From NCBI GenBank assembly GCA_035260845.1, contig DATFUL010000002.1, positions 7,033 to 71,032 on the forward strand: a stretch of 64,000 nt of DNA, read 5' to 3'. The position numbers and the translations under genes are program-made. The stretch comes from Patescibacteria group bacterium. Its GTDB lineage: Bacteria > Patescibacteriota > Microgenomatia > UBA8517. This document shows positions 1 to 13,463 of this stretch, piece after piece. Every line of letters begins with the position of its first letter. Position 1 is the stretch's first letter. The notes beneath the pieces were generated by a model. That model was not told the DNA's origin. It saw nothing but the letters and a program-made list of their open reading frames with translations, and ran no database searches.

Positions 1-300
1 CAATCAGCATTTAGTGACAGTTCTCCGGAACAGGCAATTGGCAAATTAATCCAACTTGTTATCTGGCTTCTTATTATTGGTGCATCTGTTTATGCACTGA
101 TTAACTTGGTTTTAGCAGGCTACTCTTTTATGGCTGCCGGGGACGACAGTAAAAAAGTCGCAGGGGCTTGGGCAATGATTTGGCAAACAATGTTGGGTTT
201 AGCAATTTCCGCAGGGGCTTTTGTACTGGCTGCGATTTTTGGACAATTAATTTTTGGGGACCCAACGTTTATACTTAATCCAACCATCCCACCACTTTAA
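1..300 (+). CDS. T4SS-type pilin paralog 1 (5'-truncated by window edge; TrbC/VirB2-like two-helix membrane protein)
   Basis: Frame 1 is open from position 1 with no upstream stop in the window. The translation ...LIQLVIWLLIIGASVYALINLVLAGYSFMAAGDDSKKVAGAWAMIWQTMLGLAISAGAFVLAAIF shows hydrophobic helix, a GD(D/K) loop, then a second hydrophobic helix. The four downstream paralogs have the same architecture. Stop TAA at 298-300. Confidence 0.55.
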   Translation, partial: QSAFSDSSPEQAIGKLIQLVIWLLIIGASVYALINLVLAGYSFMAAGDDSKKVAGAWAMIWQTMLGLAISAGAFVLAAIFGQLIFGDPTFILNPTIPPL

Positions 301-677
301 TGAATAATTTATTGACACAAGCACAGAGCGGTTTACAAATTGCACCAAAGGGTGGTTTTACTGGTTTTGGTCCTTTGGGAACTGCGGGAAGCAATGGCGT
401 AAGTGTATTTAGTAAATTTATTTCCTCTATTGTAGGACTAATGACCATAATTGCCATTATTTGGTTTGTGTTTACTTTTATAGCAGGTGCAATTGGTATA
501 ATTGGCGCTGGAAGCGATAAAAACGCACTAGAGGGTTCAAGAAAAAAGATTGTAAATGGAATAATTGGACTTGTAGTTACGGTTGCCGCAATCTTTATAA
601 TTAACTTAGTCGGCTACCTGCTAGGATTCAAAAATATTTTAGATATCGGAACTTTAATTAATTCTTTAAACAAATGA
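300..677 (+). CDS. T4SS-type pilin paralog 2 (TrbC/VirB2-like)
   Basis: 125 aa with the core IGAGSDKNALEGSRKKIVNGIIGLVVTVAAIFII flanked by TM helices. The motif is shared with neighbouring paralogs (GGDKGALEGARGKISSAIVG, GGDKGATEGARNQITAALVG). Start overlaps the previous stop (TAATG). Confidence 0.6.
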   Translation: MNNLLTQAQSGLQIAPKGGFTGFGPLGTAGSNGVSVFSKFISSIVGLMTIIAIIWFVFTFIAGAIGIIGAGSDKNALEGSRKKIVNGIIGLVVTVAAIFIINLVGYLLGFKNILDIGTLINSLNK

Positions 678-991
678 TTACAAATCCGGCTTTGGGTAAT
701 ATTGGCAAACAATCTGGTGTAGAGTTTTTTAAGAACTTTATTCCCGGTCTTATTGGGTTGGGTTTTGTAGCTGGAACAATCATATTTTTCTTTATCTTAA
801 TCATCGGAGCAATTCAGTGGATTACGGCCGGAGGGGATAAAGGAGCTTTAGAAGGTGCGCGCGGCAAAATCTCAAGCGCAATTGTTGGAATTATAATACT
901 CTTCTCACTTTTTGCGGTGCTTGATCTTATTCATATATTTTTCAATATTAAAATTATGACACTTGACATAGGCCCATTGGTAATTCGATAA
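674..991 (+). CDS. T4SS-type pilin paralog 3
   Basis: 105 aa with TM helix, AGGDKGALEGARGKISSAIVGIIILFSLF, then TM helix. ATGA start/stop overlap with the previous gene. Confidence 0.6.
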   Translation: MITNPALGNIGKQSGVEFFKNFIPGLIGLGFVAGTIIFFFILIIGAIQWITAGGDKGALEGARGKISSAIVGIIILFSLFAVLDLIHIFFNIKIMTLDIGPLVIR

Positions 992-998
992 TACATAT

Positions 999-1337
999 AT
1001 GCAAGCTCACCTCGCGCAAATTAATTTACAAAATTTAGGCCAAAACAATCAAAATTTTGGTTCTCTTACAACTCTTACTTTGCCTTCAATAATTTCCGGA
1101 ATGATTAGGGGTGCATTAGTAGTTGCAGCTGTAGTCTTTTTCTTTATTTTAGTTATTGGTGGAATTAAATGGATTGCTTCAGGTGGCGATAAAGGCGCCA
1201 CAGAAGGCGCAAGAAACCAAATAACTGCAGCTTTGGTAGGACTTGTAATAGTCTTTGCGGCTTGGGCTATAGTCCAGCTTATTCAAGTATTCTTTGGAGT
1301 TAATATCTTCAATCTTTCACTTCCGACCGCGGGCTAA
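999..1337 (+). CDS. T4SS-type pilin paralog 4
   Basis: 112 aa containing ...VVAAVVFFFILVIGGIKWIASGGDKGATEGARNQITAALVGLVIVFAAWAIV. Same two-helix topology. Confidence 0.6.
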   Translation: MQAHLAQINLQNLGQNNQNFGSLTTLTLPSIISGMIRGALVVAAVVFFFILVIGGIKWIASGGDKGATEGARNQITAALVGLVIVFAAWAIVQLIQVFFGVNIFNLSLPTAG

Positions 1338-1386
1338 TAGTTAAATTAGGCTTGCCGAAACCTATTCTCTAGATTAGAATTACTTT

Positions 1387-1674
1387 ATGGCTGCATCACT
1401 ACCTCCACAAATAGCAGATTTAGAAGGAATATTCGGTAATATAGTCCAAGCTATCTTGGGTTTTGCTGGTATTGTTCTTTTTATTTTGATTCTTTCCGGC
1501 GGGATTAAATATTTAACCTCAGGGGGTGACCCAAAAGCTACTGAGGCTGCGCAAAAGACAATCACTTATGCAATTGGTGGACTTGTCTTGATTCTTCTTT
1601 CCTATATGATTCTAGTTTTAATCAAAACAATTACAGGAGTGAACGTTACTGAGTTTAAAGTGACATTACCTTAA
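1387..1674 (+). CDS. T4SS-type pilin paralog 5
   Basis: 95 aa containing ...ILGFAGIVLFILILSGGIKYLTSGGDPKATEAAQKTITYAIGGLVLILLSYMILV. Same family signature. Confidence 0.6.
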   Translation: MAASLPPQIADLEGIFGNIVQAILGFAGIVLFILILSGGIKYLTSGGDPKATEAAQKTITYAIGGLVLILLSYMILVLIKTITGVNVTEFKVTLP

Positions 1675-1770: not shown

Positions 1771-2358
1771 CTAATCAGTTTTGTTTATAAGCTCAATGAG
1801 TATTTCGTAAGTCAGGTCTTCAGTTTTAATTGAATCTACGGGATTGTAGAGGAATTTAAATGGCTGACTAGATTCCTTTAAATTCCTGTAATTTCCCCTA
1901 AAGTCATCCGGCCTCGAAATCACAGACTTTTTTAAAGCCTCATGCCATTTAACTAAATCAATTTCTAAATCTTTTAAATTGGATCCTGGAATCGATTTTA
2001 AAAACTCATCCTGATAAGACCTTTGAATATCTCCTTTAACTTCTACCAAGCTTGCCCGAGAATAACCCAAAAAATTAATATATTCGGAGGTTGTCTGCCT
2101 TGCAAAACCCTCTTCGATGTTTGCTACGGTTGAGCGTGCAGCATCATCTAGTTGAGCCTTTAATCTGTATTCAAGTTTAGGTAGAGTGTTTGTATATTCT
2201 CGGATTAAAACTCTAAGAAGGCTTGCATTTGACCAGGCAACTAAGAAAATGTAACCGTTTGGAGTATTAGAGACTCGAGAACGCTCAATTGGTTTTGAAG
2301 TTTGGGAAAGTTCGCGTAAAGTTTTGTCGATAAGATCCTGAACGACTTTGTTGGGCAT
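1771..2358 (-). CDS. four-helix-bundle protein (23S rRNA IVS protein / Avd-like family)
   Basis: 195 aa whose core LPKLEYRLKAQLDDAARSTVANIEEGFARQTTSEYINFLGYSRASLVEVKGDIQ matches the E-Y-L-QL-RAA-S-NIAEG-R-S-EF-FL-A-GS-E signature of the four-helix-bundle/Avd family. It carries extra N- and C-terminal extensions. Confidence 0.55.
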   Translation of the reverse strand: MPNKVVQDLIDKTLRELSQTSKPIERSRVSNTPNGYIFLVAWSNASLLRVLIREYTNTLPKLEYRLKAQLDDAARSTVANIEEGFARQTTSEYINFLGYSRASLVEVKGDIQRSYQDEFLKSIPGSNLKDLEIDLVKWHEALKKSVISRPDDFRGNYRNLKESSQPFKFLYNPVDSIKTEDLTYEILIELINKTD

Positions 2359-2413: not shown

Positions 2414-5140
2414 TTGATGCGCTATAATAAGTTCATGCAAAAGCTGTCCAAATTTGTTTATTTTGTTTTTTTTCTTCTCACTTTTGTGTTCTGCTTTTTA
2501 TACCCTGTATTACAACCGGGGGTTGTAAACGCGCAGATTCCTAAATTAAGACTTCCTTGTACAGATGATGGGAAAAATCCTGAATTTAACTCTTTAAGAC
2601 CTTACCAAGCCGCCCCCTGCGGAGACGCAGGTAAAGCTCTTTATTGCAGCAATGATTTAATTTTTACAGAGGATTTTGATTTTGCCGGACAATGTGGTGG
2701 ACAAGCACCTGCTGGAACAGGAAATTTTACTTGTAAATTAAATGGCGGTCTAGGTTCAGGTCTCATTCCTGCACATACTCTTTATGTAACACTCGACAAT
2801 TCACAGTTCCCTATTGAGGGCAACACAGAACAAGTTAAAAATAGCCAAAACAGTAGCGATTCACTTGACGACGCAACTAAAGTTAATGAATACGTTAGCT
2901 GGTATTTAAGTGGCGTTACAGGCCATGCAGAAAATGGGGCTTCAACTAATGATCAAGTCGTAAACTATTCCGGTCCACTTAAAAAGCTTTTACCGGGTGC
3001 TATTCAAGACAATGCCCGCATCCAATCAATTAATAAGGCAACCAATCTTGTAAGATATCCTGAAGAAAGTGACACCCAGGGCCAGGCAGATGCGATAGTT
3101 ACGGGTCCGGAAACGCATAACCAAATTGTAGTTTGTGCCAATAAACAAATATTAGGGATCAATAATCCTTATATTGGTAGCACTCATCCATATCCTTGTT
3201 ATAAAGGTGATGGATCAGCCGCTGCACCGGAAAATGAAATCTATAGACTCAAAACATGGGATAAAGGAACGCTTTCTTTTGCCCGCACAACATCAGAGAT
3301 ATTAAAGGATTTTCTTCGCCTCTATCCCGGTATTACTCAAACAGTAATTGATAATTTGTTTAGTGGGCAAGCTTGGAACAAAAAGACACCTCCGCTTCCT
3401 TGGGACGATGTTGGGGATGGAACCGGCAAACCCTTCGCTTCCTCAAATTTATACTTAAAAGCCTACAACGAGTGGAGGGGTAAAAGCTGCATAATTGTTC
3501 CCTATTTAAACGTTCCTCTTTGTTTTGATAATCCTGGAGTCACCAATGAATATGCCGACCTTTTTTCATATGTTCCACTTGCAGTTACTCCTGATAAAAA
3601 AGGTGCTGAATATGTCGCGGATGTCCAAATAAAACCATCGCAAGGAACTGAATTGTCATCAAAAACTTACGACCCTGCCAGAAATGCTCCTTTATATTTC
3701 GCCCATACACAAGAAACATCAGATTCCTCTAATTTGCTTAATACAACCTATACTCCTAAAGGTTATAAAAGTCAGCCCGTCCCCGCAACAACAGAAAAAA
3801 ATGAATGTAGTATTGTAAACGTTAGAACTAACGCCGGGGACAATTTATTCCCAGGCGACCCTGACGAAATCCAAGTCCCGGGTGTTACTTACACAATAAG
3901 TTCTGTTGAATGCAAGCAAACAGTTAAAGAAAGTCTTTGTATAAAAAATCACAATAACCCAGAATATGACGGAAAAACTATGTGTATACAAAAAACCTTA
4001 GAGTGCAACGCAGAAGTCATAATAACACTTATTACAAATACCAAAACCCCTTCTGCAAATGAACTTTTTAGTTCAACGGTAGCCGATTCTGGTTCCACTT
4101 TTAGGAAAATTTATCCAAAGGTTGGAGAAGGATCCCCAATAAGCTGCATTGCTGATATTCCAACAGTAACCGACGTGACTTATGACTCTAGTAAAAGTCA
4201 GCCACCATTAGGCGGAGATCAAACATTTAAAGTGAGGAATAATCCCAAAGACGGAGCTTCTGGTAGTAATCAACTCACTTTCCCCCATATAGGAAGTGTT
4301 TATGAGTACTTCTTAAAAGGAATTCAGGCTGCGCTAAGACCAAAAGGTTATAGTGATCCGATCGTTGACGGCCAACTTTGTTATACCAATATGTGTACTC
4401 CTGTATCGGGCTTGCCAAAAGCCTCTGGGTCCTGTGCCCTAGGGGGGTCACTAAACCGGATTGGTGTAGTTGCTCCATCATTAAAGGCGGTCGTTGAAGC
4501 CGCTGCTCAAACATACAAAGTGCCACCAGGTCTTATTTTGGGAGTAATGTATGGGGAGGGTGTGTTTAATACAAATTTCTACAAAAATGAGGCCAATGTA
4601 AAAGATTTTGCGTCCTGTAGACCGCTTCCGAACTGTAATGCAAACGCGAGTGAAATTAAAAGTATTGTTCCTTTTATTAAGCCTTATTGGGACAATTTGG
4701 CAAAAGAAATTTTACCGGACTTAAAGAAAATTGATCCCAAAAAAACAAAGGCAGACCCATGTAATTTGTTGGACGCTACTTTTGGCTTGGCGAAAGATTT
4801 GCACGATAATGCAGGTGGGTCAGCATCAATAACAGGAAACTCTTGCTACGGAATCCCTATGACTTCCACAAACCCCGGTTCTTGTTCATGGGACAATAGT
4901 CAATACGAAACAGCAATTAGAGTTTGGGAAATAGGAACCGAGTACGATGTTGCCTCACAAAAAACATGTCTTACAACTCCAGGGACTTGTGAATCAGGGA
5001 TTGCGTCGGGAAGCGACTATACAAGCTCGCTTTGTCCAGGTGGAGATAACTGTGAAACGTTGGGGAGCTCTGGAAACACTAGTCACAATGCCTGTGTATT
5101 TGATGTATCTACAAGTGGTGGATCGGGAAATAAAAAGTAA
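2414..5140 (+). CDS. large secreted cysteine-rich protein with C-terminal lytic-transglycosylase (SLT)-like segment; candidate T4SS cell-wall hydrolase/adhesin
   Basis: 908 aa with an N-terminal signal/TM (KFVYFVFFLLTFVFCFLYPVL). It has many Cys and Gly/Ser/Thr-rich stretches. The segment AAQTYKVPPGLILGVMYGEGVFNTNFY resembles the SLT catalytic region (A-kYgV-p-ll-ai---ES-FNp). Domain assignment is tentative. Confidence 0.35.
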   Translation: MMRYNKFMQKLSKFVYFVFFLLTFVFCFLYPVLQPGVVNAQIPKLRLPCTDDGKNPEFNSLRPYQAAPCGDAGKALYCSNDLIFTEDFDFAGQCGGQAPAGTGNFTCKLNGGLGSGLIPAHTLYVTLDNSQFPIEGNTEQVKNSQNSSDSLDDATKVNEYVSWYLSGVTGHAENGASTNDQVVNYSGPLKKLLPGAIQDNARIQSINKATNLVRYPEESDTQGQADAIVTGPETHNQIVVCANKQILGINNPYIGSTHPYPCYKGDGSAAAPENEIYRLKTWDKGTLSFARTTSEILKDFLRLYPGITQTVIDNLFSGQAWNKKTPPLPWDDVGDGTGKPFASSNLYLKAYNEWRGKSCIIVPYLNVPLCFDNPGVTNEYADLFSYVPLAVTPDKKGAEYVADVQIKPSQGTELSSKTYDPARNAPLYFAHTQETSDSSNLLNTTYTPKGYKSQPVPATTEKNECSIVNVRTNAGDNLFPGDPDEIQVPGVTYTISSVECKQTVKESLCIKNHNNPEYDGKTMCIQKTLECNAEVIITLITNTKTPSANELFSSTVADSGSTFRKIYPKVGEGSPISCIADIPTVTDVTYDSSKSQPPLGGDQTFKVRNNPKDGASGSNQLTFPHIGSVYEYFLKGIQAALRPKGYSDPIVDGQLCYTNMCTPVSGLPKASGSCALGGSLNRIGVVAPSLKAVVEAAAQTYKVPPGLILGVMYGEGVFNTNFYKNEANVKDFASCRPLPNCNANASEIKSIVPFIKPYWDNLAKEILPDLKKIDPKKTKADPCNLLDATFGLAKDLHDNAGGSASITGNSCYGIPMTSTNPGSCSWDNSQYETAIRVWEIGTEYDVASQKTCLTTPGTCESGIASGSDYTSSLCPGGDNCETLGSSGNTSHNACVFDVSTSGGSGNKK

Positions 5141-5182: not shown

Positions 5183-6655
5183 ATGCCTGACGTGTTTAAA
5201 AAATTTCTGTTTTCATTTTTGGCTTTTTTAGTTGTTTTTACTTCTATTACTCCGAACTTTTTATCTGTTAAGGCTGCTAGTAATTCAGCAACGGATTCAG
5301 CTACCTCTACTGCAACTTGGTATAGCCCTGGTCTTTTTGAATTTTACAGTAAAGTATTTGACACAAGTAATAACGATATTTTTGGTGAAAGGTACACTTA
5401 TGCCCAAGTGGTTTGGATTATAGAATCACTTCCCCTTGCAATTTTAGGAATTAGCGCCAGCACTTTTCATGACATACTTCAACAGGTCCAATCAAACCCG
5501 AATGGTACAAGCGTTCTTTTAGACCAAGGTAATAGCCTTGCAAAAATCAATGATCCGTTTACTACAATAATTAGCCAATTTTATTCATCTCCACCTGCTT
5601 CTGGTAGATATTGGCTATCACAAAAAATAAATAACTTTAGTTTGGTTAAAAAAGCTTATGCAGCACCAGCCAACAGCTTTGGCTATTCATCCCTTTTAAT
5701 ATTTGAACCTCTTTGGAGTGCTTCACGCAATATTGCTTACACGTTAATAGTTTTAATTTTATTGGCAATTGCTTTCGCTGTAATGTTTAGGTTAAAAATT
5801 AGTCCCCAGGTGATTGTTACTGTCCAAAGTGCACTTCCAAAAATTGCAACTACGCTTATTTTAGTTACTTTCTCTTATGCGATTGTAGGATTTTTAATTG
5901 ATTTAATGTATTTAATTTTTGGAGCAATAGTCTACGGGATTGGGAACCAATCAGGTGTGTTGGCATCGGGTGTAAGTGCTCCAGATTTATTGAATAATTT
6001 TCTTAACGGAAACTTATTTACAAAAATATTTACGACAGCCGGTACCGGCGGAACTGTTGGAATTGTAGGAGTTGTTGTTGGGCTGATTGCTTTGGTTTTT
6101 ACACCAATAGGGCCGGCTATTATTCCTCTTGTTATAGGTATACTAATTGCTGGAATAATATTTTTTATAAAAACCTTTATTATGCTTGCTCAAACCTACC
6201 TGTCCCTTATTATGAACTTGGTGTTTGGGCCAATAATAATTTTGGCCGAAGCTATTCCATTTATTAAAGCATCGGCTGTGGACTGGATGAGATCGGTTAT
6301 TGCAGATATTTTAGTATTTCTTGCAGTAGGATTACTGTTCTTGGCCGAATCATTGATCAATGGAGCTTTAAGTACGACTGCAAGCACTCCACCCTGGAGC
6401 CCACCCTATTTGGGATTCAATGCCAATATTTTTAAGATAATGATTTGGGTTGGTGTTTGGTCAATCCTACCTAACATCAGATCTATTGTTTACAAAATGA
6501 TGGAGCGGTCAGCTGCAGAGATTCAGTTGCCAAGAGAATTTAGTAATCTGGGTGAAACCTTCCAACGTGGCCTTGGTGAATACACTGGAAATACACAGTT
6601 TAGAGATTCATTTAATAGATGGTTGTCAGGATTAAGAGGTCGTACAGGAACCTAA
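5183..6655 (+). CDS. polytopic membrane protein, VirB6/TrbL-like candidate
   Basis: 490 aa. Signal-like N-terminus (FLFSFLAFLVVFTSITPNFLSVKAAS) followed by at least 6 predicted TM helices (IAYTLIVLILLAIAFAVMF, IATTLILVTFSYAIVGFLIDLMYLIFGAIVYGI, VGIVGVVVGLIALVF, IIPLVIGILIAGIIFFI...). The call rests on position in the T4SS-like locus and topology only. Confidence 0.4.
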   Translation: MPDVFKKFLFSFLAFLVVFTSITPNFLSVKAASNSATDSATSTATWYSPGLFEFYSKVFDTSNNDIFGERYTYAQVVWIIESLPLAILGISASTFHDILQQVQSNPNGTSVLLDQGNSLAKINDPFTTIISQFYSSPPASGRYWLSQKINNFSLVKKAYAAPANSFGYSSLLIFEPLWSASRNIAYTLIVLILLAIAFAVMFRLKISPQVIVTVQSALPKIATTLILVTFSYAIVGFLIDLMYLIFGAIVYGIGNQSGVLASGVSAPDLLNNFLNGNLFTKIFTTAGTGGTVGIVGVVVGLIALVFTPIGPAIIPLVIGILIAGIIFFIKTFIMLAQTYLSLIMNLVFGPIIILAEAIPFIKASAVDWMRSVIADILVFLAVGLLFLAESLINGALSTTASTPPWSPPYLGFNANIFKIMIWVGVWSILPNIRSIVYKMMERSAAEIQLPREFSNLGETFQRGLGEYTGNTQFRDSFNRWLSGLRGRTGT

Positions 6656-6692: not shown

Positions 6693-9059
6693 TTACTTCT
6701 TCTTACCTATAAAGATCCCCACTTGTTTAGTTAGTCTTTTTTCTGCATCAGCTATAACTTCTCCATTTTTCGCAAGTGGCTTTGTAGTTCTAAATTTCTT
6801 GTTTTCGTCCTCAAAATTCTTGATTACTTCTTCCTCAGTTTTAGGATTGCCATCCGATACTGCTTGTATATTTATTTCAGCAATTCTTGCAGCCGATACA
6901 TCCTCTAGATTGTTTTGGCCAAGATCTGGGTTAAACAATTTAACCACACTATTCAAAACATTGGTTGCAAAAGAGGCACTTTTAATCCTAGCCGCGTTCA
7001 TGTTGTCAAAGACATTTTTAACAACAATTTTATCTTTATCATCACTTATGTCGTATTTGTGCATGGACCCTTTGGTAAGTGTCAAAACATTGTAAACAAT
7101 ATTAAAGTATTTCCACATCTTCTTGAGTCCATTCAATGAGAAATCTTCTAATCTAAAATCAACCTTTATTAAAGCGTCTAGAACACCCCTTTCGTCTCTT
7201 CCAGAAAGCCATTGAATTAGGTCAAAGTTGCCATGAAAATCCCTTTGAAGAGACTCAAAGTTTAAATCTCCCAATCTGTTATACGGTTCTTCTGGAATTT
7301 CTATATTCGTAGGCTCCCCAGTTAAGAGATTTGTTCTAACTCCAGCCGCTGTTCCAAGCCAGGCATCAAAAAGAGATCTTGTTCTTATTTTATCATTACC
7401 CTCACTATCTTTGTCCATTATCTCTTTTCCATCTTCATTAAGCATAGCCACTTGGGAAAAGTCCATAAGGCTTGTAGCCATATCGGGAATTCTACCAATT
7501 AGATCCTTTAGGCCGGAAGGCCTACCGGCAAGGCCCTCTTTAAGGTTCCATAGGTAAACAAGAAACTTTCCAAGATCGTCTGAGGATATAAACTGTCCTT
7601 CCCCAAGTGCCAAAGCAAACTCTCCGTTTTCAAAATACACATAACCTTCAGAGGAGTAAACTCCAGCAGCTCTTAAAAAGGTAGCCGCCAACCATGAAGC
7701 CTCATCAATACTTTCGACTTTTCCTTTACGGTCGATTTTACCTGTACCAACAAGCTCACCTATATACTTTATAAACCCATTTTCCTTCTTAAGGTTCAGT
7801 TTCCCCCTGCCTGCAATATTTCCAAGCTCTGTTACTGGACCTCTTAATTTTTGTATTTTTTCAACTCCATTCTTGATAACTTTATTGGGAGTTTCTACAT
7901 ACTCAACAATTTTTCCCTTTTCATCTTTTCTCGGAACAAAACGTATACCCCGGTTCTCTTGATCTAATGTTTCTGTTATGATCACTTTACCCGTCTTTTC
8001 ATTCTTAACTGGTTTTAGAGTTCTATCAATAGATTTGGTCCATTTTTTCCAATCGCCCAATTGTTCTTTAAGAAATTCCCAAGCTTCATCATATTTCAAA
8101 CCCCTTCTCTCCATTAAGCGTTTAATCATTAATCCCTCTGTTGCCGGTTTATTGATAAATGCCTGCATTTGTTCAGGTGTCTCACTATTAAGCATGGCCA
8201 GATTCCACCATATTGCTTCTTCTATTTGATCACCAAGTTCGTGTAAACGCTTACCTTCTTTGTTGTGTATTGCCTTTTCACGCACAAGTTCTTTTTCGGA
8301 GGGTAAATTTAAAAATTCCTCAATATGTTCGACTCTAAGTTTAGAGGCACCAAGGTGATTTGATTCGGTAAGCCCATTTAAATCATCCCTAAAACGAAGT
8401 CTAATTCCTATTCTCGAATCCAAAATTATCCTAGATTCAAATTCCAATATACCTCTTTCGTAAGCGTTGGCCAATTCTGTTCTATCTTCATCAGTTCCAT
8501 AATTGTATTCAGTTTTATATCCAACCACCTGGCCATTCATCCGAATATCCTTCTGATCAACCGATAGGGCTGTGGATCCAAATTTAGCTTTTCTGGGCTC
8601 TCCAATACCAGTATTTGGATCATAAGATTCAAGCCAACCCCTTTCTTTTAGATCTTCAATTGTCATATTTAAAACTTCAGCTCTATCAATCATTACATCC
8701 AGAACTCTTGTGGGTGTGTAATGGTCAGCCAACTCGCGGGGAATCGTTCCACTCTCAATCCTAGCTTCAAACTTTCTTAAACCGTAGTAAAACTCAGATG
8801 GATATTCAGCATTTGTAATCATTTCCATCCTAAGAGACTCACCACCTCTATACTGCCTACTGTTTGCTTCTTCTAATTGTGGGTCGCCCTCGGGTTCCTT
8901 CTTTTTCCCGGCTGGGTTTGCCATAAATTCTTTAGCTCCAAGCAAATCATTATTCTGTTGTCCTTGTCTTTCGTAATGCCGAGGTTGACTACCCTTGTCT
9001 ATTCCAAAACTGGGATCTTGAGGAGTACCAAATTCATTATTAAAAGGATTATCCGCCAT
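6693..9059 (-). CDS. large hypothetical cytoplasmic protein (about 790 aa) of unknown function
   Basis: Long ORF on the minus strand. The ORF track starts at 9209, but the first 50 residues are low-complexity, so an internal start MADNPFNNEFG at 9059 is preferred. No signal peptide, no Walker A, no HUH motif and no recognisable domain. It is charged and K/E-rich. Confidence 0.6.
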   Translation of the reverse strand: MADNPFNNEFGTPQDPSFGIDKGSQPRHYERQGQQNNDLLGAKEFMANPAGKKKEPEGDPQLEEANSRQYRGGESLRMEMITNAEYPSEFYYGLRKFEARIESGTIPRELADHYTPTRVLDVMIDRAEVLNMTIEDLKERGWLESYDPNTGIGEPRKAKFGSTALSVDQKDIRMNGQVVGYKTEYNYGTDEDRTELANAYERGILEFESRIILDSRIGIRLRFRDDLNGLTESNHLGASKLRVEHIEEFLNLPSEKELVREKAIHNKEGKRLHELGDQIEEAIWWNLAMLNSETPEQMQAFINKPATEGLMIKRLMERRGLKYDEAWEFLKEQLGDWKKWTKSIDRTLKPVKNEKTGKVIITETLDQENRGIRFVPRKDEKGKIVEYVETPNKVIKNGVEKIQKLRGPVTELGNIAGRGKLNLKKENGFIKYIGELVGTGKIDRKGKVESIDEASWLAATFLRAAGVYSSEGYVYFENGEFALALGEGQFISSDDLGKFLVYLWNLKEGLAGRPSGLKDLIGRIPDMATSLMDFSQVAMLNEDGKEIMDKDSEGNDKIRTRSLFDAWLGTAAGVRTNLLTGEPTNIEIPEEPYNRLGDLNFESLQRDFHGNFDLIQWLSGRDERGVLDALIKVDFRLEDFSLNGLKKMWKYFNIVYNVLTLTKGSMHKYDISDDKDKIVVKNVFDNMNAARIKSASFATNVLNSVVKLFNPDLGQNNLEDVSAARIAEINIQAVSDGNPKTEEEVIKNFEDENKKFRTTKPLAKNGEVIADAEKRLTKQVGIFIGKKK

Positions 9060-9305
9060 ACAAAAATTGTAGCACAAAATAGACATGGAGAGTATTGAGT
9101 GGGTTGTGCATAAAAACTTGACTATGGGCCGAAAAAGTCCTACACTCGCGAGCAAGATGGGAAAAGAAAATCCAAAAGGCCTCTTTCGCAAACTCCTTGC
9201 TGCTTCCAACTCTGAAAAAGCGAAGAGTGAGGCTCTAGCTTTAGACGAATTAAAAAAAGAGATCTCGAAGATAAACGCCTCATATCAGAGTTTGACAATC
9301 GAATA

Positions 9306-9910: not shown

Positions 9911-10954
9911 ATGGAACAACACGCCATACCGCAAAACGTATCTTCGTACCAATTTAAGTTGGTTGGGGACATGACTCTTAAGCAATTTTTTCAACTCGCT
10001 GGTGGAATTTTGGTTGCAATTATTATTTACTCTCTACCACTTTTAGGAATTATTAAGTGGCCTTTTGCAATTCTTTCTGTTCTACTTGGTATTGGCCTTG
10101 CTTTCTTGCCACTTGAAGAACGGCCTTTAGAAAAATGGATATTTGCATTTTTTAGAGCTATTTATGCACCAACTATTTTTTCCTGGCAAAAAGCCGCAAC
10201 TCCTCCCAAATTTTTTCAGGACGAAAGCCCAACTAGTAGTACTCCACAGCAAGATTTGGCACTTAAAAGTTATTTGGGCACAACCGCTCAAGTATCGGGA
10301 GCGCTAGGAAACTTGGAAAAAGCTGAAAATGGATTTTTAGCAAAACTTACCGCACTCTTTTCTGGAATTGTTAATCCTACTCCCGCTACTCAAATTACCC
10401 CTGCCGCTACTCTTGTTCCGGAAAAATCAAAGGAGATGCAAATTCCGGAAACCCAGCCCATAAGAATTCAAGCTAATGCAACACATTTGGTGGTTGAAGA
10501 AAAACCAACTATTCAAACGGTTCAAAGTGAGCTTTCAACAAGCCAGGTTGCACCAATTATTGCAGGGAATGAGATGATTTCTACAAAACAAGCAATGTTT
10601 TCAATTGATGCGGCCCCTCCAAGCCCGCCCAGTCAACCCAATGTTGTAGTTGGCCAAATAGTTGATCAGGATAGGAAAATCGTAGAAGGCGCAATTATGG
10701 AAATTAGAGACTCAATGGGACGCCCAATAAGGGCCTTAAGAAGTAATCGAGCCGGACATTTTATTACGGTTACACAGCTAGATAATGGCCATTACGAAAT
10801 AATTACCGAGAAAGATGGTTATGAATTCGCTGCAGTTAGTTTTGACGCCAACGGCAACTTAATTCCGCCAATTTTGGTTCAAGGAAAACGAATTGCACCA
10901 ATAATTGAACCGGTACCTACCGGAATTGTTAAACCTGCATATTCTATTAACTAA
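9911..10954 (+). CDS. PrgI/VirB3-like membrane protein fused to a C-terminal CarboxypepD_reg-like beta-sandwich domain
   Basis: N-terminus MEQHAIPQNVSSYQFKLVGDMTLKQFFQLAGGILVAIIIYSLPLLGIIKWPFAILSVLLGIGLAFLPLEERPLEKWIFAFFRAI has the PrgI-family pattern: a short tail, the F-K-vG-lTlrQf segment and two TM helices. C-terminus VVGQIVDQDRKIVEGAIMEIRDSMGRPIRALRSNRAGHFITVTQLDNGHYEIITEKDGYEF resembles a carboxypeptidase-regulatory-like domain. It sits directly upstream of VirB4. Confidence 0.5.
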   Translation: MEQHAIPQNVSSYQFKLVGDMTLKQFFQLAGGILVAIIIYSLPLLGIIKWPFAILSVLLGIGLAFLPLEERPLEKWIFAFFRAIYAPTIFSWQKAATPPKFFQDESPTSSTPQQDLALKSYLGTTAQVSGALGNLEKAENGFLAKLTALFSGIVNPTPATQITPAATLVPEKSKEMQIPETQPIRIQANATHLVVEEKPTIQTVQSELSTSQVAPIIAGNEMISTKQAMFSIDAAPPSPPSQPNVVVGQIVDQDRKIVEGAIMEIRDSMGRPIRALRSNRAGHFITVTQLDNGHYEIITEKDGYEFAAVSFDANGNLIPPILVQGKRIAPIIEPVPTGIVKPAYSIN

Positions 10955-10956
10955 AC

Positions 10957-11661
10957 ATGAAGAATTCCTTAACATCTTTAAAAATCCCCAAAATTCCATA
11001 CCTGTCGGTTCCGGATGCACCAATCACTTCAACTACTCAAAGTCATTTACCCATAGCTGACGTCACAAACGACATTGTTATCTATAAAGACGGTGGGGCG
11101 GCGCTTGTTATGGAGTCGACTTCTTTAAACTTTGGACTCTTAAGCGAAAAGGAACAGGCTGCTGTTATTGCCGCCTATGCTGCAATGATTAATTCTCTTT
11201 CTTTTTCTATACAAATTATGGTTCGCACCCAAAGGAAAGATATAAGTAACTATATAACCTACATTGACGAAGAAGCTAAAAAATTAACTCACCCACTACT
11301 ACAAAAGCTTATGGGTGAATACAGGGCCTTTATAATGGACTCGGTTAAAAAGAAAAATGTTCTTGGAAAAAGATTTTATGTGGTTCTTTACCTATCGCCT
11401 CTTGAGCTTGGGGTTGGCAAATCAATTGCGGCAGTCACCAAACGCGGAATCACTCTCCCCTTTACCAAGTCTTACGTAATCAAAAAAGCCAAAATCACTC
11501 TTTATCCAAGACGCGATCATTTAATGCGCCAGGCTGGCCGACTTGGAATTAAATTTAGACAACTTACAACTCGTGAGTTAACTGATTTGTTTTATTCAAT
11601 CTATAACCCCGAGCATCCAGCGGTTAAAAAAGAGCCAGAAGTGATTCTTGAACACAAATGA
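10957..11661 (+). CDS. VirB4/TrbE/PrgJ-family ATPase, N-terminal domain fragment (split gene, part 1)
   Basis: 234 aa. IADVTNDIVIYKDGGAALVMESTSLNFGLLSEKEQAAVIAAYAAMINSLSFSIQIMVRT matches the N-terminal CagE/TrbE/VirB4 domain. The stop overlaps the next ORF start as ATGA. Confidence 0.6.
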   Translation: MKNSLTSLKIPKIPYLSVPDAPITSTTQSHLPIADVTNDIVIYKDGGAALVMESTSLNFGLLSEKEQAAVIAAYAAMINSLSFSIQIMVRTQRKDISNYITYIDEEAKKLTHPLLQKLMGEYRAFIMDSVKKKNVLGKRFYVVLYLSPLELGVGKSIAAVTKRGITLPFTKSYVIKKAKITLYPRRDHLMRQAGRLGIKFRQLTTRELTDLFYSIYNPEHPAVKKEPEVILEHK

Positions 11662-13463
11662 AACCAGACCAACCAACTAACCAACCGACAGTTCAACAAC
11701 AAGGCAAACCTAAAATCGGAAGTCCAAATATCGCTGTTTCCCAAGGATTAAACGTACTGGATGTTGTTGCCCCGCAATCCATCGAGGAAGATTTTGACTA
11801 TTTTAAAATAAACGACGTTTATTTTAGAACAATTTTTATTGGCGGCTATCCAAGATTTGTGGCCCCGGGTTGGCTTGAACCAGTTGTTAATTTTGATTCC
11901 TCCTTAGACATTTCTTTTTACGTTTATCCGGTTGACGGTAAAACCGTGCTTGATGACCTGAGACGCAAAATTGCAGAAATGGAGGCCGAGCTTTCGACCG
12001 ACATTGAGCGCGGCAGAATTGTTGACCCCTCAACTCAAGCAAAACTGGAAGACGCCAGAAATTTGCAAGAACAACTTGTTAAGGGAATCGAAAGATTTTA
12101 TGAATTTAGTTTCTACATTACAATCCCAGCAAATTCAGTTGAAGAACTAAACCATGTAACCAAGCAGATTGAGTCACAACTTGGTTCACTTTTAATTGTT
12201 AGTAAGCATGCGCTACTCGACCAAGAATCCGGGTTTTTGTCCACTGCCCCATTTGGAATAGACAGGCTAAACATTACAAGAAACATGGATACAACCTCTG
12301 TTGCCACAACTTTTCCATTAACTTCAACTGAACTATCTAGTGACCGCGGGGTTCTTTACGGAATAAATTCACAAAATGAATCTTTTATTATTTTTGACCG
12401 TTTTTCTTTGGAAAACGCAAATATGACTATTTTTGCTACAAGCGGTGCCGGAAAATCTTACTTTGTTAAACTCGAAGCCGTTCGTTCTTTAATGACTGGA
12501 ACAGAAGTAATAATAATTGACCCGGAAAGTGAATATAAACCCTTAGCACAGGCTGTTGGGGGTGAATATATTTCTTTTTCCTTTAATTCCCCTGCCAAAA
12601 TTAATCCGTTTGATTTAGCTCAAATTAGAGAAGAGGGTGAAAACCAGCTTGGACAAAAGATTCTTTCACTCCATTCTCTAATGAAGGTTATTATGGGAAC
12701 AATCTCCCCCACCCAAGAGGCCTTACTTGACCGTGCACTTGTCATGACTTACAGGAACAAAGGCATAACCATGGATCCAGACACCCAGGGCAAAGAACCG
12801 CCCCTAATGGAAGACTTGTATAAAACTTTAATTGGCATGGAAGTACCAGATGCTTTGGACCTTGCAGCAAGAATTGAAAAATTTGTCAGAGGTTCGTTTG
12901 TTGGTATTTTTGATAAACAAACAAACATAAACATCACAAATCCGTTTACTGTTTTTTCGGTTAAAGATTTGCAGGATGTTCTAAGGCCCATCGCCATGTT
13001 TATAATCCTAGACTACATTTGGACGAGAGTTAAAAAAGACCTCAAGAAACGCATCTTAATCGCCGAGGAGGCCTGGCAAATGATGAAGTACCCAGATACA
13101 GCCCAATTTTTATGGAGTGTCGTTAAAAGGGCTAGGAAATATTATTTAGGTTTAACAACGATTACTCAGGATGTGGAAGACTTTTTGGGCCAAGATATTG
13201 GTAAAGCAATTGTCACCAACAGTGCCATGCAGGTGCTTCTTAAACAGTCCCCAGCTGCAATCGATAAAATCGGGGAAATATTTTACTTAAGCCAGGGGGA
13301 AAAACAGTTACTCTTAGCAGCAAACGTTGGTGAGGGAATATTTTTTGCAGGCCCGCACCATGCTCCAATTAGGGTTGTTGCATCTGAGGATGAAAACAAA
13401 CTAATTACAACCAAACCACAAGAAATTGCAAAGATAAGTCCAAACGCATATGAAGCAAAATAA
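11658..13463 (+). CDS. VirB4/TrbE/PrgJ-family T4SS ATPase, C-terminal ATPase domain (split gene, part 2)
   Basis: 601 aa. Walker A MTIFATSGAGKSYFVKLE. Walker B/DEAW-type RILIAEEAWQMMKY. Conserved GLTTITQ and sensor region typical of the VirB4 C-terminal domain. Confidence 0.85.
   Translation: MKPDQPTNQPTVQQQGKPKIGSPNIAVSQGLNVLDVVAPQSIEEDFDYFKINDVYFRTIFIGGYPRFVAPGWLEPVVNFDSSLDISFYVYPVDGKTVLDDLRRKIAEMEAELSTDIERGRIVDPSTQAKLEDARNLQEQLVKGIERFYEFSFYITIPANSVEELNHVTKQIESQLGSLLIVSKHALLDQESGFLSTAPFGIDRLNITRNMDTTSVATTFPLTSTELSSDRGVLYGINSQNESFIIFDRFSLENANMTIFATSGAGKSYFVKLEAVRSLMTGTEVIIIDPESEYKPLAQAVGGEYISFSFNSPAKINPFDLAQIREEGENQLGQKILSLHSLMKVIMGTISPTQEALLDRALVMTYRNKGITMDPDTQGKEPPLMEDLYKTLIGMEVPDALDLAARIEKFVRGSFVGIFDKQTNINITNPFTVFSVKDLQDVLRPIAMFIILDYIWTRVKKDLKKRILIAEEAWQMMKYPDTAQFLWSVVKRARKYYLGLTTITQDVEDFLGQDIGKAIVTNSAMQVLLKQSPAAIDKIGEIFYLSQGEKQLLLAANVGEGIFFAGPHHAPIRVVASEDENKLITTKPQEIAKISPNAYEAK

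What the first reader, a model, noticed from the sequence alone, without database searches (positions are those of the whole stretch)
1..1674. Five tandem, divergent pilin paralogs
At least five consecutive genes (the first truncated at the window edge) encode small proteins with the same architecture. Each has a variable N-terminal leader, a TM helix, a conserved GG(D)K-x-A-x-EGAR/K-x-I-x-x-A-I-V/G-G-L loop, and a second TM helix. Flanking regions are clearly diverged. The genes are separated by 0-50 nt, and several use overlapping stop/start codons. Candidate explanations are a heteropolymeric pilus, minor/major pilin specialisation, or a reservoir for surface variation. The leaders (for example MNNLLTQAQSGLQIAPKGGFTGFGPLGTAGSNG) look like cleavable pro-peptides.
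Basis: seen in the sequence. Interest (0 to 1): 0.6.

Follow-up and report, generated by a model that had tools for sequence, protein, structure and literature searches.

The report
Conserved eight-gene T4SS pilin array

Summary
Window 1-1674 holds five same-strand genes for about 100-aa helical-hairpin proteins of Pfam PF18895 (T4SS_pilin). Identical contigs show the window cuts an array of eight genes (p1-p8). The array lies beside VirB3/PrgI- and VirB4-like genes, about 15 kb from dnaN/dnaA, in a Candidatus Woesebacteria genome.

Tandem divergent VirB2-like pilin arrays in Patescibacteria are already described (Wang 2023; Quinonero-Coronel 2025), so the kind is known.

- The eight paralogs have one-to-one counterparts in the same order in 52 of 85 related loci. 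Orthologs are 44-63% identical and paralogs 20-48%. dN/dS is 0.02-0.30.
- A near-consensus promoter, TTGACA-N18-RATAAT (window 963-992), sits just upstream of p7 in 45 of 52 genomes and upstream of no other array gene. p7 is also the most conserved paralog.
- Only p1, which lies outside the window, has a Sec signal peptide. The other N-terminal "leaders" are conserved within each paralog group.

These results favour fixed, non-redundant subunits with p7 as the likely major one. They argue against a variation reservoir and do not support cleavable TrbC-type pro-peptides. No pilus has been shown.

The parts
1..300 (+). p4: the 3' 99 codons of a 115-aa pilin-like gene, fourth of the eight. Its start lies 48 nt beyond the window edge.
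   Evidence: Frame-1 translation. The full gene is on identical contigs at L002 9654-10001. PF18895 match is only E=0.18-0.29. The AF2 model is a hairpin, H25-62/H66-101, pLDDT 82. Orthologs are 71-85% identical.
300..677 (+). p5: 125-aa pilin-like hairpin protein. Its start overlaps the p4 stop (TAATG).
   Evidence: PF18895 E=4e-4, below the gathering score. One-to-one orthologs in related genomes.
674..991 (+). p6: 105-aa pilin-like hairpin protein. ATGA overlap with p5. Its last codons contain the -35 box of the p7 promoter.
963..992 (+). Sigma-70-type promoter TTGACA (963-968), 18-nt spacer, GATAAT (987-992). The -10 box ends 6 nt before the p7 ATG.
   Evidence: 11 of 12 consensus match. 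It is the only exact TTGACA-N18-RATAAT in the 64 kb, against 0.08 expected by chance. It is conserved upstream of p7 in 45 of 52 genomes and upstream of none of the other seven genes.
999..1337 (+). p7: 112-aa pilin-like protein, the most conserved paralog and the candidate major subunit.
   Evidence: PF18895 33.9 bits. The AF2 model is a hairpin, H28-60/H65-99. Orthologs are 64-88% identical with 38 invariant columns. Mean pairwise identity is 63%, the highest of the eight. dN is the lowest in most of the closest pairs.
1387..1674 (+). p8: 95-aa pilin-like protein, last gene of the array.
   Evidence: PF18895 39 bits. One-to-one orthologs.
2414..5140 (+). Context: 908-aa Cys-rich protein with a hydrophobic N-terminal segment. 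In relatives its counterpart directly follows p8. It diverges fast.
   Evidence: No Pfam, NCBIfam or PDB-sequence match. Counterparts in the same position are only 34-39% identical. In L004, L006 and L007 a 786-879 aa gene abuts p8.
5183..6655 (+). Context: 490-aa polytopic membrane protein. It is a VirB6-like candidate by position only.
   Evidence: No family match. Conserved position in relatives. The VirB6 assignment is inference.
9911..10954 (+). Context: PrgI-family (VirB3-like) T4SS protein.
   Evidence: PF12666 PrgI, 29.1 bits, above the cut-off of 27.
10957..11661 (+). Context: 234-aa protein whose orthologs carry PF26593 TraC-like.
   Evidence: 81-88% identical to the L004, L006 and L007 genes annotated PF26593. 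The window protein itself gave no Pfam hit.
11658..13463 (+). Context: VirB4-like T4SS ATPase.
   Evidence: PF19044 TraG P-loop 103.5 bits, plus DUF87 and AAA_10.

Best explanation
The five genes are p4-p8 of an eight-gene operon-like array (p1-p8). The array encodes the pilin-like subunits of the chromosomal, Gram-positive-type type IV secretion system of a Candidatus Woesebacteria (Microgenomatia, Patescibacteria) bacterium.

Shown:
- Each protein is a two-helix membrane hairpin of the T4SS_pilin family.
- The eight are ancient, distinct paralogs kept one-to-one and in the same order across the clade, under purifying selection.
- p7 is the most conserved and is the only one preceded by a conserved near-consensus promoter.

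Inferred:
- The hairpins insert with both ends outside and the G-G-D-K turn in the cytoplasm. p1 uses a Sec signal peptide. p2-p8 rely on nearly uncharged N-tails that can be translocated without one.
- The VirB4/VirB3/VirB6-like machine then extracts them from the membrane and polymerises them into a short tube.
- p7 is the abundant shaft subunit. The other seven are low-copy, position-specific subunits for the tip, base or adaptor.
- p1, with its Cys-rich ectodomain, is a candidate tip piece.
For: Family and context:
- PF18895 is the best hit for all eight proteins, and five pass the cut-off.
- PrgI/VirB3-like and VirB4-like genes lie 8-10 kb downstream, and dnaN/dnaA follow.
- The organism titles of 80 related loci are Woesebacteria, Microgenomates or Patescibacteria.

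Link to TrbC/VirB2:
- The window's profile hits archaeal multi-hairpin proteins at E about 1e-33 to 1e-40.
- Three of those proteins (P0133, P0144, P0152) also hit PF04956 TrbC/VIRB2 at 84-145 bits.

Fold:
- AF2 gives hairpins for p7 and p4.

Fixed set:
- All five genomes first examined have eight genes with position-wise best hits. Orthologs average 59-76% identity and different positions 25-48%.
- 52 of 85 loci read exactly p1..p8. Most of the rest are cut contigs, lack one call, or have p6 scored as p7.
- dN/dS is 0.02-0.30.
- p7 and p4 are about as conserved as SmpB encoded nearby.

p7 as major subunit:
- The promoter is found in 45 of 52 genomes at 11/12 match, against 0 of 52 for every other position. 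It is kept even where it lies fully between genes.
- It is unique in the 64-kb window.

Topology:
- Only p1 has a signal peptide.

Literature:
- The pilin series is essential in Southlakia epibionticum (PMC10633639).
- Arrays of 2-11 genes are described, and are especially abundant in Microgenomatia (PMC12102498).
- A tube or 'lance' 8.6-9 nm wide and 61-70 nm long, with a barbed tip, was seen by cryoET in a Saccharibacterium (PMC11880426). The width is that of conjugative pili (my own knowledge). The authors did not assign it to the T4SS.
Against: - No filament made of these proteins has been observed in any Patescibacterium.
- No direct sequence or fold match to solved VirB2/TraA pilins was found. 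The profile search of PDB sequences gave nothing. Foldseek gave nothing better than E=2; the only pilin hit was the Aeropyrum pernix conjugation pilus at E=6.2. hhalign against VirB2 and TraA gave probabilities of 1.2% and 0.15%.
- A promoter consensus is not a measure of expression, and the promoter would also drive p8 and, in relatives, the downstream genes.
- p4, p5 and p6 fall below Pfam's cut-off.
- The role assigned to each subunit is inference only.
Confidence: 0.55

Rival explanations
1. Not a pilus: the hairpins are membrane-embedded parts of the T4SS channel, or form a ring or bundle in the membrane, and the name 'pilin' reflects only topology.
For: Gram-positive-type T4SSs normally lack pili (PMC12102498, PMC12857230). 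No significant structural match to pilus subunits was found. Relatives exist as single polypeptides of 6-17 fused hairpins, an arrangement also known for fused c-ring rotor subunits (my own knowledge).
Against: The fused relatives hit TrbC/VIRB2 pilin above threshold. Because both termini are outside, fused hairpins are equally compatible with a helical tube. p1's secreted Cys-rich ectodomain suggests surface exposure. A tube of matching width is seen in a Saccharibacterium (PMC11880426).
Confidence: 0.2
2. Obligate equal-stoichiometry heteropolymer: all eight subunits co-assemble in a fixed repeating order, with no major/minor distinction.
For: Gene number and order are conserved. Natural fusions of adjacent hairpins occur in relatives.
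Against: A dedicated conserved promoter precedes p7 only. Conservation differs widely between paralogs, 44-63%. p1 carries a large extra domain of variable length, 89-417 aa.
Confidence: 0.12
3. Reservoir for surface or host-range variation, as proposed for VirB2 paralogs of Bartonella and Anaplasma and suggested for Patescibacteria in PMC12102498.
For: Paralogs are only about 20-48% identical. The neighbouring 908-aa protein evolves fast.
Against: Each paralog has a one-to-one ortholog at a fixed position in 52 loci. dN/dS is 0.02-0.30. There are no recent duplicates and no homogenised tracts. The series is essential in S. epibionticum (PMC10633639).
Confidence: 0.08
4. Chance resemblance: generic hydrophobic low-complexity ORFs with no real shared motif.
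For: Three of the five window proteins score below the Pfam cut-off.
Against: Loop residues are invariant. The family has thousands of homologs (2,718 hits; 62,623 representatives). The AF2 hairpins are confident. Synteny is conserved.
Confidence: 0.01

Closest known systems
VirB2-like pilin arrays of Patescibacterial T4SSs (Southlakia epibionticum ML1 essential six-pilin series; TM7x 'Sec secreted array'; 441 arrays of 2-11 genes in 383 assemblies) - PMC10633639, PMC12102498, PMC12857230
   Same: Same Pfam family (PF18895). Tandem divergent paralogs at about 25% identity, inside a relaxase-less, Gram-positive-type chromosomal T4SS locus near dnaA. The class Microgenomatia is explicitly listed as rich in such arrays.
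   Different: This is an eight-gene Woesebacterial version. Those papers do not mention orthologs, promoters or fused pilins. Seven of the eight proteins here lack a Sec signal peptide, whereas the TM7x array was named 'Sec secreted'.
TrbC/VirB2/TraA conjugative pilins of diderm T4SSs (Pfam PF04956; F, RP4 and Ti plasmids)
   Same: Small two-helix hairpin with a short polar turn, encoded next to VirB3/VirB4-type genes. The predicted membrane topology has both ends outside.
   Different: No direct sequence or fold match; the link is only through intermediates. There is no long Sec leader on p2-p8 and no TraF- or TraQ/TraX-type maturation genes were seen. There are eight distinct subunits rather than one, and the cell is a monoderm.
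Mbov_0395 family pilin-like conjugal transfer proteins of Mycoplasma ICEs (NCBIfam NF045849)
   Same: p1, p2, p3, p7 and p8 match this model over nearly its whole length, at E from 1e-7 to 3e-3. It belongs to a monoderm conjugation system.
   Different: All scores (17-31 bits) are below the model's cut-off of 40. I did not examine whether the Mycoplasma genes form arrays.
Major/minor pilin sets of type IV pili and the T2SS pseudopilus (for example GspG plus GspH-K)
   Same: Works alike, not related: a fixed, ordered operon of several distinct small subunits, one abundant and the others low-copy tip or priming pieces (my own knowledge).
   Different: Unrelated fold and machinery. There is no prepilin-peptidase motif here.

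Membership tests
Pfam PF18895 T4SS_pilin | Score above the gathering threshold (26.6 bits) against the family HMM | tested here: met
   p1 37.5, p2 40.7, p3 34.2, p7 33.9 and p8 39.0 bits pass. p4 (about 12), p5 (20.7) and p6 (16.2) have it as best hit but fall below the cut-off. All eight align to one another.
Patescibacterial T4SS VirB2-like pilin array | Two or more pilin genes in tandem, near virB4, in a Patescibacteria genome | tested here: met
   Eight tandem genes. The VirB4-like gene is about 10 kb downstream and the PrgI gene about 8 kb downstream. Organism titles are Woesebacteria or Patescibacteria.
Patescibacterial T4SS VirB2-like pilin array | Low identity between members of one array (reported mean 25%, maximum 54%) | tested here: met
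   Within-genome pairs are 20-48% identical.
TrbC/VirB2 pilin family (PF04956) | Detectable sequence homology to TrbC/VirB2 | tested here: inconclusive
   No PF04956 hit at E<=1 for any of the eight. Indirect link: the window profile hits P0133, P0144 and P0152 at 1e-34 to 1e-40, and these hit PF04956 at 84-145 bits.
TrbC/VirB2 pilin family (PF04956) | Long Sec-type signal peptide removed by signal peptidase, with further C-terminal trimming or cyclisation in TrbC | tested here: not met
   Only p1 has an N-terminal hydrophobic segment (residues 4-23). p2-p8 have two hydrophobic segments only, and their N-tails have few charged residues. No S26/TraF-like gene was found in the window.
TrbC/VirB2 pilin family (PF04956) | Fold match to solved conjugative pilus subunits | tested here: inconclusive
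TrbC/VirB2 pilin family (PF04956) | Polymerises into an extracellular tube with bound lipid | not testable with these tools
   Needs filament purification or cryo-EM.
NCBIfam NF045849 Mbov_0395 pilin-like conjugal transfer protein | Score above the curated cut-off (40 bits) | tested here: not met
   Best score is 31.5 bits (p2). p8 28.7, p7 24.3, p1 22.5 and p3 17.2.

The most novel reading that the evidence does not exclude
The eight individually conserved, order-fixed hairpin proteins build a heteromeric conjugative-type pilus in a monoderm cell. p7 forms the shaft and the others, including Cys-rich p1, form a defined tip and base. This would be the roughly 9-nm 'lance/conduit' seen by cryoET between Patescibacteria and their hosts. 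If so, it would be the first VirB2-type filament with an obligate multi-subunit composition, analogous to major/minor pilins of type IV pili.
Probability: 0.3. Interest if true: 0.7.

Novelty: new member of a known kind. Interest (0 to 1): 0.35.

Why it matters
The T4SS and its pilin series are essential for the epibiotic life of the one Patescibacterium tested genetically, yet the role of the system is described as completely unknown (PMC11665869) and no pilus has been seen.

Three results here turn a vague 'many divergent pilins' picture into testable predictions. The pilin set is fixed and ordered across a whole class-level lineage. One member has its own conserved strong promoter. The family connects to TrbC/VirB2 through multi-hairpin fusion proteins.

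From these follow predictions about which subunit should dominate a filament, which should be rare, and that the paralogs should not be interchangeable. The results also argue against the published suggestion that the arrays serve host-range variation, at least in Woesebacteria.

Tried and rejected
- Profile search of the eight paralogs against PDB sequences gave only chance hits.
- The first attempt to scan genome contigs with the mixed-paralog alignment failed for lack of a conserved stretch. It worked with p7 orthologs only.
- The generic promoter/terminator scan of the array was at chance level overall: 13 sites found against 12 expected, and no convincing terminator. Only the p7 site stood out, and it was then tested by conservation.
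- Shine-Dalgarno motifs are rare before all eight genes, so they say nothing about relative translation.
- dN/dS between paralogs is not meaningful because the sites are saturated. It was computed between close orthologs instead, where dS is also near saturation, so the ratios are rough.
- The neighbouring 908-, 490-, 838-, 841-, 169- and 194-aa proteins gave no family match. NCBIfam was run only on the 908- and 490-aa proteins and PDB-sequence search only on the 908-, 841- and 490-aa proteins; both gave nothing. Their roles stay open.
- P0001 and P0003, apparent p6-p7 and p7-p8 fusions, look like read-through or gene-calling artefacts and were not used as evidence.
Full report
**1. The observation**

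Window 1-1674 carries five same-strand ORFs:
- 1-300, running in from the window edge
- 300-677 (125 aa)
- 674-991 (105 aa)
- 999-1337 (112 aa)
- 1387-1674 (95 aa)

The junctions are TAATG, ATGA, a 7-nt gap and a 49-nt gap. The five proteins share one plan: a polar N-tail, a hydrophobic helix, a short turn G-(G/S/D)-D-x-K...E-G-A-R/K, a second hydrophobic helix and a short C-tail. G, D, I and G are invariant, and identity to the first sequence is 18-26%.

All five have Pfam PF18895 'T4SS_pilin' as their best match. Two are above the gathering score. AlphaFold2 with homolog alignments gives confident two-helix hairpins for the 112-aa protein (H28-60/H65-99, helices above pLDDT 90, first 24 residues disordered). 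It does the same for the full-length form of the truncated first gene (H25-62/H66-101, pLDDT 82).

**2. The array is larger than the window shows**

Looking up the 125-aa protein returned three contigs that are 100% identical to the window over 3-10.7 kb. They show three more pilin genes upstream, plus the missing start of the first one. The complete array is therefore p1 (203 aa), p2 (114), p3 (103), p4 (115, the truncated window ORF), p5 (125), p6 (105), p7 (112) and p8 (95). A divergently transcribed SpoIID-domain gene precedes it.

p1 differs from the rest. It has a classical Sec signal peptide and a Cys-rich domain of about 90 aa in front of the hairpin. p1, p2 and p3 also pass the PF18895 threshold.

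**3. Context and organism**

Downstream of the array lie, in order:
- a minus-strand 23S_rRNA_IVP-family gene
- a 908-aa Cys-rich protein and a 490-aa polytopic protein, neither with any family match
- a PrgI-family (VirB3-like) gene
- a gene whose orthologs are 'TraC-like'
- a VirB4-like ATPase (TraG P-loop, 103 bits)
- dnaN, dnaA, rnpA and yidC

The rest of the window is housekeeping. This is a chromosomal T4SS locus next to the replication origin. Record titles of related loci name Candidatus Woesebacteria, Microgenomates or the Patescibacteria group.

**4. What is already known**

- Wang et al. [quoted passage not shown]
- Quinonero-Coronel et al. 2025 (PMC12102498) searched 3,035 Patescibacteria genomes with PF18895 and other profiles. 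They reported 441 arrays of 2-11 pilin genes, especially in Microgenomatia and Saccharimonadia, with mean within-array identity of 25%. They also noted the proximity to dnaA, and suggested that the variability might help adaptation to different hosts.
- A 2025 review calls these systems unique among monoderms for their potential to make conjugative pili (PMC12857230).

The finding is therefore an instance of a published kind.

**5. The paralogs are a fixed, ordered set**

Four related genomes found through p7 homologs all carry eight pilin genes between SpoIID and a large downstream gene. Best hits are strictly position-for-position. Orthologs average 59-76% identity, against 25-48% for different positions.

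A scan of GTDB species representatives with the p7 ortholog alignment found 118 species and returned 80 loci. I built eight group HMMs from the first five genomes and classified the ORFs in each locus. Of 85 loci, 52 read exactly p1-p2-p3-p4-p5-p6-p7-p8. Most of the others are cut contigs, lack one call, or have p6 scored as its closest paralog p7.

Each group has its own conserved consensus, including in the N-tail:
- p4: NPFG..I..P
- p5: GGF.GFGPLG
- p6: I.NPALG
- p7: LLA....INL.P...F..L..LT.P

.

Between the closest ortholog pairs, dN is 0.02-0.49 while dS is at or near saturation. That gives dN/dS of 0.02-0.30, lowest for p7 in most pairs. p7 and p4 are about as conserved as the nearby SmpB, while the 908-aa neighbour is only 34-39% identical.

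This pattern is what one expects of non-redundant structural subunits. It is not what one expects of a variation cassette.

**6. A dedicated promoter for p7**

The consensus scan of the array was at chance level overall. It did flag TTGACA-N18-GATAAT ending 6 nt before the p7 start, at window 963-992. This is the only exact TTGACA-N18-RATAAT in the 64 kb, where 0.08 is expected.

Across the 52 complete arrays, the best promoter score upstream of p7 averages 10.5 of 12, and 45 genomes reach 11. For each of the other seven genes the mean is 7.6-7.9 and none reaches 11.

In most genomes the -35 box lies inside the last codons of p6. It is equally conserved in the loci where the p6-p7 gap is 48-282 nt and the box is fully intergenic (L015, L016, L040, L054, L065, L067, L068, L077, L080). 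The constraint is therefore on the DNA, not on the p6 protein.

The -10 box ends 3-24 nt (median 9) before the start codon, and Shine-Dalgarno motifs are absent. The p7 message would therefore have little or no leader (inference).

Together with p7's top conservation, this makes p7 the best candidate for the abundant subunit. In the window genome a convergent IVP gene follows p8, so this promoter would serve p7 and p8 only.

**7. The 'leaders'**

Only p1 has an N-terminal hydrophobic segment. p2-p8 have just the two hairpin helices, and their N-tails have few charged residues. That is the property expected of N-tails translocated without a signal peptide (my inference, from knowledge of N-tail insertion by YidC/Sec).

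p1's signal peptide and Cys-rich domain place the N-terminus outside. This gives an N-out, turn-in, C-out topology, as for VirB2/TraA in the membrane (established knowledge).

A short motif M-x(1-3)-[LIM][LI]-A-[QDE] begins many p2, p4, p5, p6 and p7 orthologs: 11-26 of 52 per group, against 0 of 344 background ORFs. I cannot explain it. In a more distant relative the aligned position is the end of a Sec-like signal peptide, so it may be a vestige. It may instead be a recognition site.

It is not excluded either.

**8. Is it a VirB2/TrbC relative?**

Directly, no similarity is detectable:
- no PF04956 hit
- no PDB sequence hit
- hhalign probabilities of about 1% against VirB2 and TraA
- Foldseek non-significant, with the Aeropyrum pernix conjugation pilus second for p4 at E=6.2

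Indirectly, there is a link. An exhaustive profile search found 62,623 cluster representatives at E<=1e-3. Of the 150 best-scoring, 111 contain 2-10 hairpin units by my local re-scan, and the remote search reported up to 17. P0133 (1,775 aa), P0144 and P0152 hit both PF18895 (200-302 bits) and PF04956 TrbC/VIRB2 (84-145 bits). P0133 is a continuous ORF in an archaeal context. A cluster-mate of P0161 is named Candidatus Altiarchaeales. These proteins bridge the two families.

NCBIfam adds sub-threshold matches to a Mycoplasma ICE 'pilin-like conjugal transfer protein'. This hints that monoderm MPF-FATA systems may have such proteins too.

**9. Mechanism proposed**

Shown: eight distinct hairpin proteins of a T4SS pilin family, a fixed set, purifying selection and a p7-specific promoter.

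Inferred:
- membrane insertion with both ends outside
- extraction and polymerisation by the VirB4/VirB3/VirB6-like machine into a short tube, with the GGDK turn inside
- p7 as the shaft
- p1-p6 and p8 as low-copy, position-specific pieces
- p1's ectodomain at the tip

CryoET of the Saccharibacterium Mycosynbacter amalyticus shows a tube or 'lance' 8.6-9 nm wide and 61-70 nm long, with a barbed tip, at the host interface (PMC11880426). That width is the width of conjugative pili (my knowledge). The authors did not link it to the T4SS, so I treat it as a lead and not as evidence.

The existence of fused multi-hairpin relatives shows that neighbouring hairpins can work side by side in one assembly. 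This fits a heteromeric structure, but it fits a membrane ring equally well.

**10. Verdict**

The kind is known and this is a new member of it. The session adds three details I did not find in the papers read: positional orthology, the p7 promoter, and the bridge to TrbC/VirB2 through polyproteins. Interest is moderate.

Noticed in passing
Not in the window: P0133 (L089 8001-13328), P0152, P0144, P0161, P0123 (L088 1777-3435): Relatives of these pilins exist as single polypeptides of 6-17 tandem hairpin units, up to 1,775 aa. Some come from archaeal (Altiarchaeales-like) contigs. P0133, P0144 and P0152 hit both PF18895 and PF04956 TrbC/VIRB2 above threshold; P0161 and P0123 hit PF18895 only. 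P0123 sits inside an array of single-hairpin genes. I found no mention of such 'poly-pilins' in the papers read.
   Followed up: partly
window 1771-2358 (minus strand); L007 7771-8127; L026, L037, L065 and others: A 23S_rRNA_IVP-family gene (195 aa here) interrupts the locus after p8, on the opposite strand. Homologs sit at different places and in different orientations in or near the array in 13 of 85 related loci: between p1/p2, between p2/p3, or downstream. It behaves like a small mobile or sporadically inserted gene.
   Followed up: partly
window 300-320, 999-1020; L002 8993-9010, 9654-9675: Many p2, p4, p5, p6 and p7 orthologs begin with the short motif M-x-N-L-L-A-Q (11-26 of 52 genomes per group, 0 of 344 background ORFs). 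It is not a Sec signal peptide. It may be a vestige of a signal-peptide c-region or a processing or recognition site.
   Followed up: partly
window 2414-5140 and 5183-6655: The 908-aa Cys-rich protein and the 490-aa polytopic protein that follow the array keep their position in relatives. They are only 34-52% identical there and match no Pfam, NCBIfam or PDB sequence. They look like fast-evolving T4SS-associated surface or membrane proteins. The VirB6-like role for the second is a guess from position.
   Followed up: partly
window 13450-15975 and 6693-9209 (minus strand): Two large ORFs (841 and 838 aa) inside the T4SS locus have no family match. The 841-aa ORF overlaps the end of the VirB4-like gene by 14 nt and may be a further T4SS component. 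No coupling protein or relaxase was recognised in the locus.
   Followed up: no
L008, L015, L016 and many other loci: Dozens of the related MAG records are titled 'uncultured Gammaproteobacteria bacterium' although they carry the Woesebacteria-type locus. These look like placeholder or wrong organism names in the public records.
   Followed up: no
window 989-991, and related loci: The conserved C-terminal peptide of p6 (..T-L-D-I-G-P-L..) is encoded by the DNA that forms the -35 box and spacer of the p7 promoter. Part of that peptide's conservation may therefore be imposed by the promoter rather than by p6 function.
   Followed up: partly
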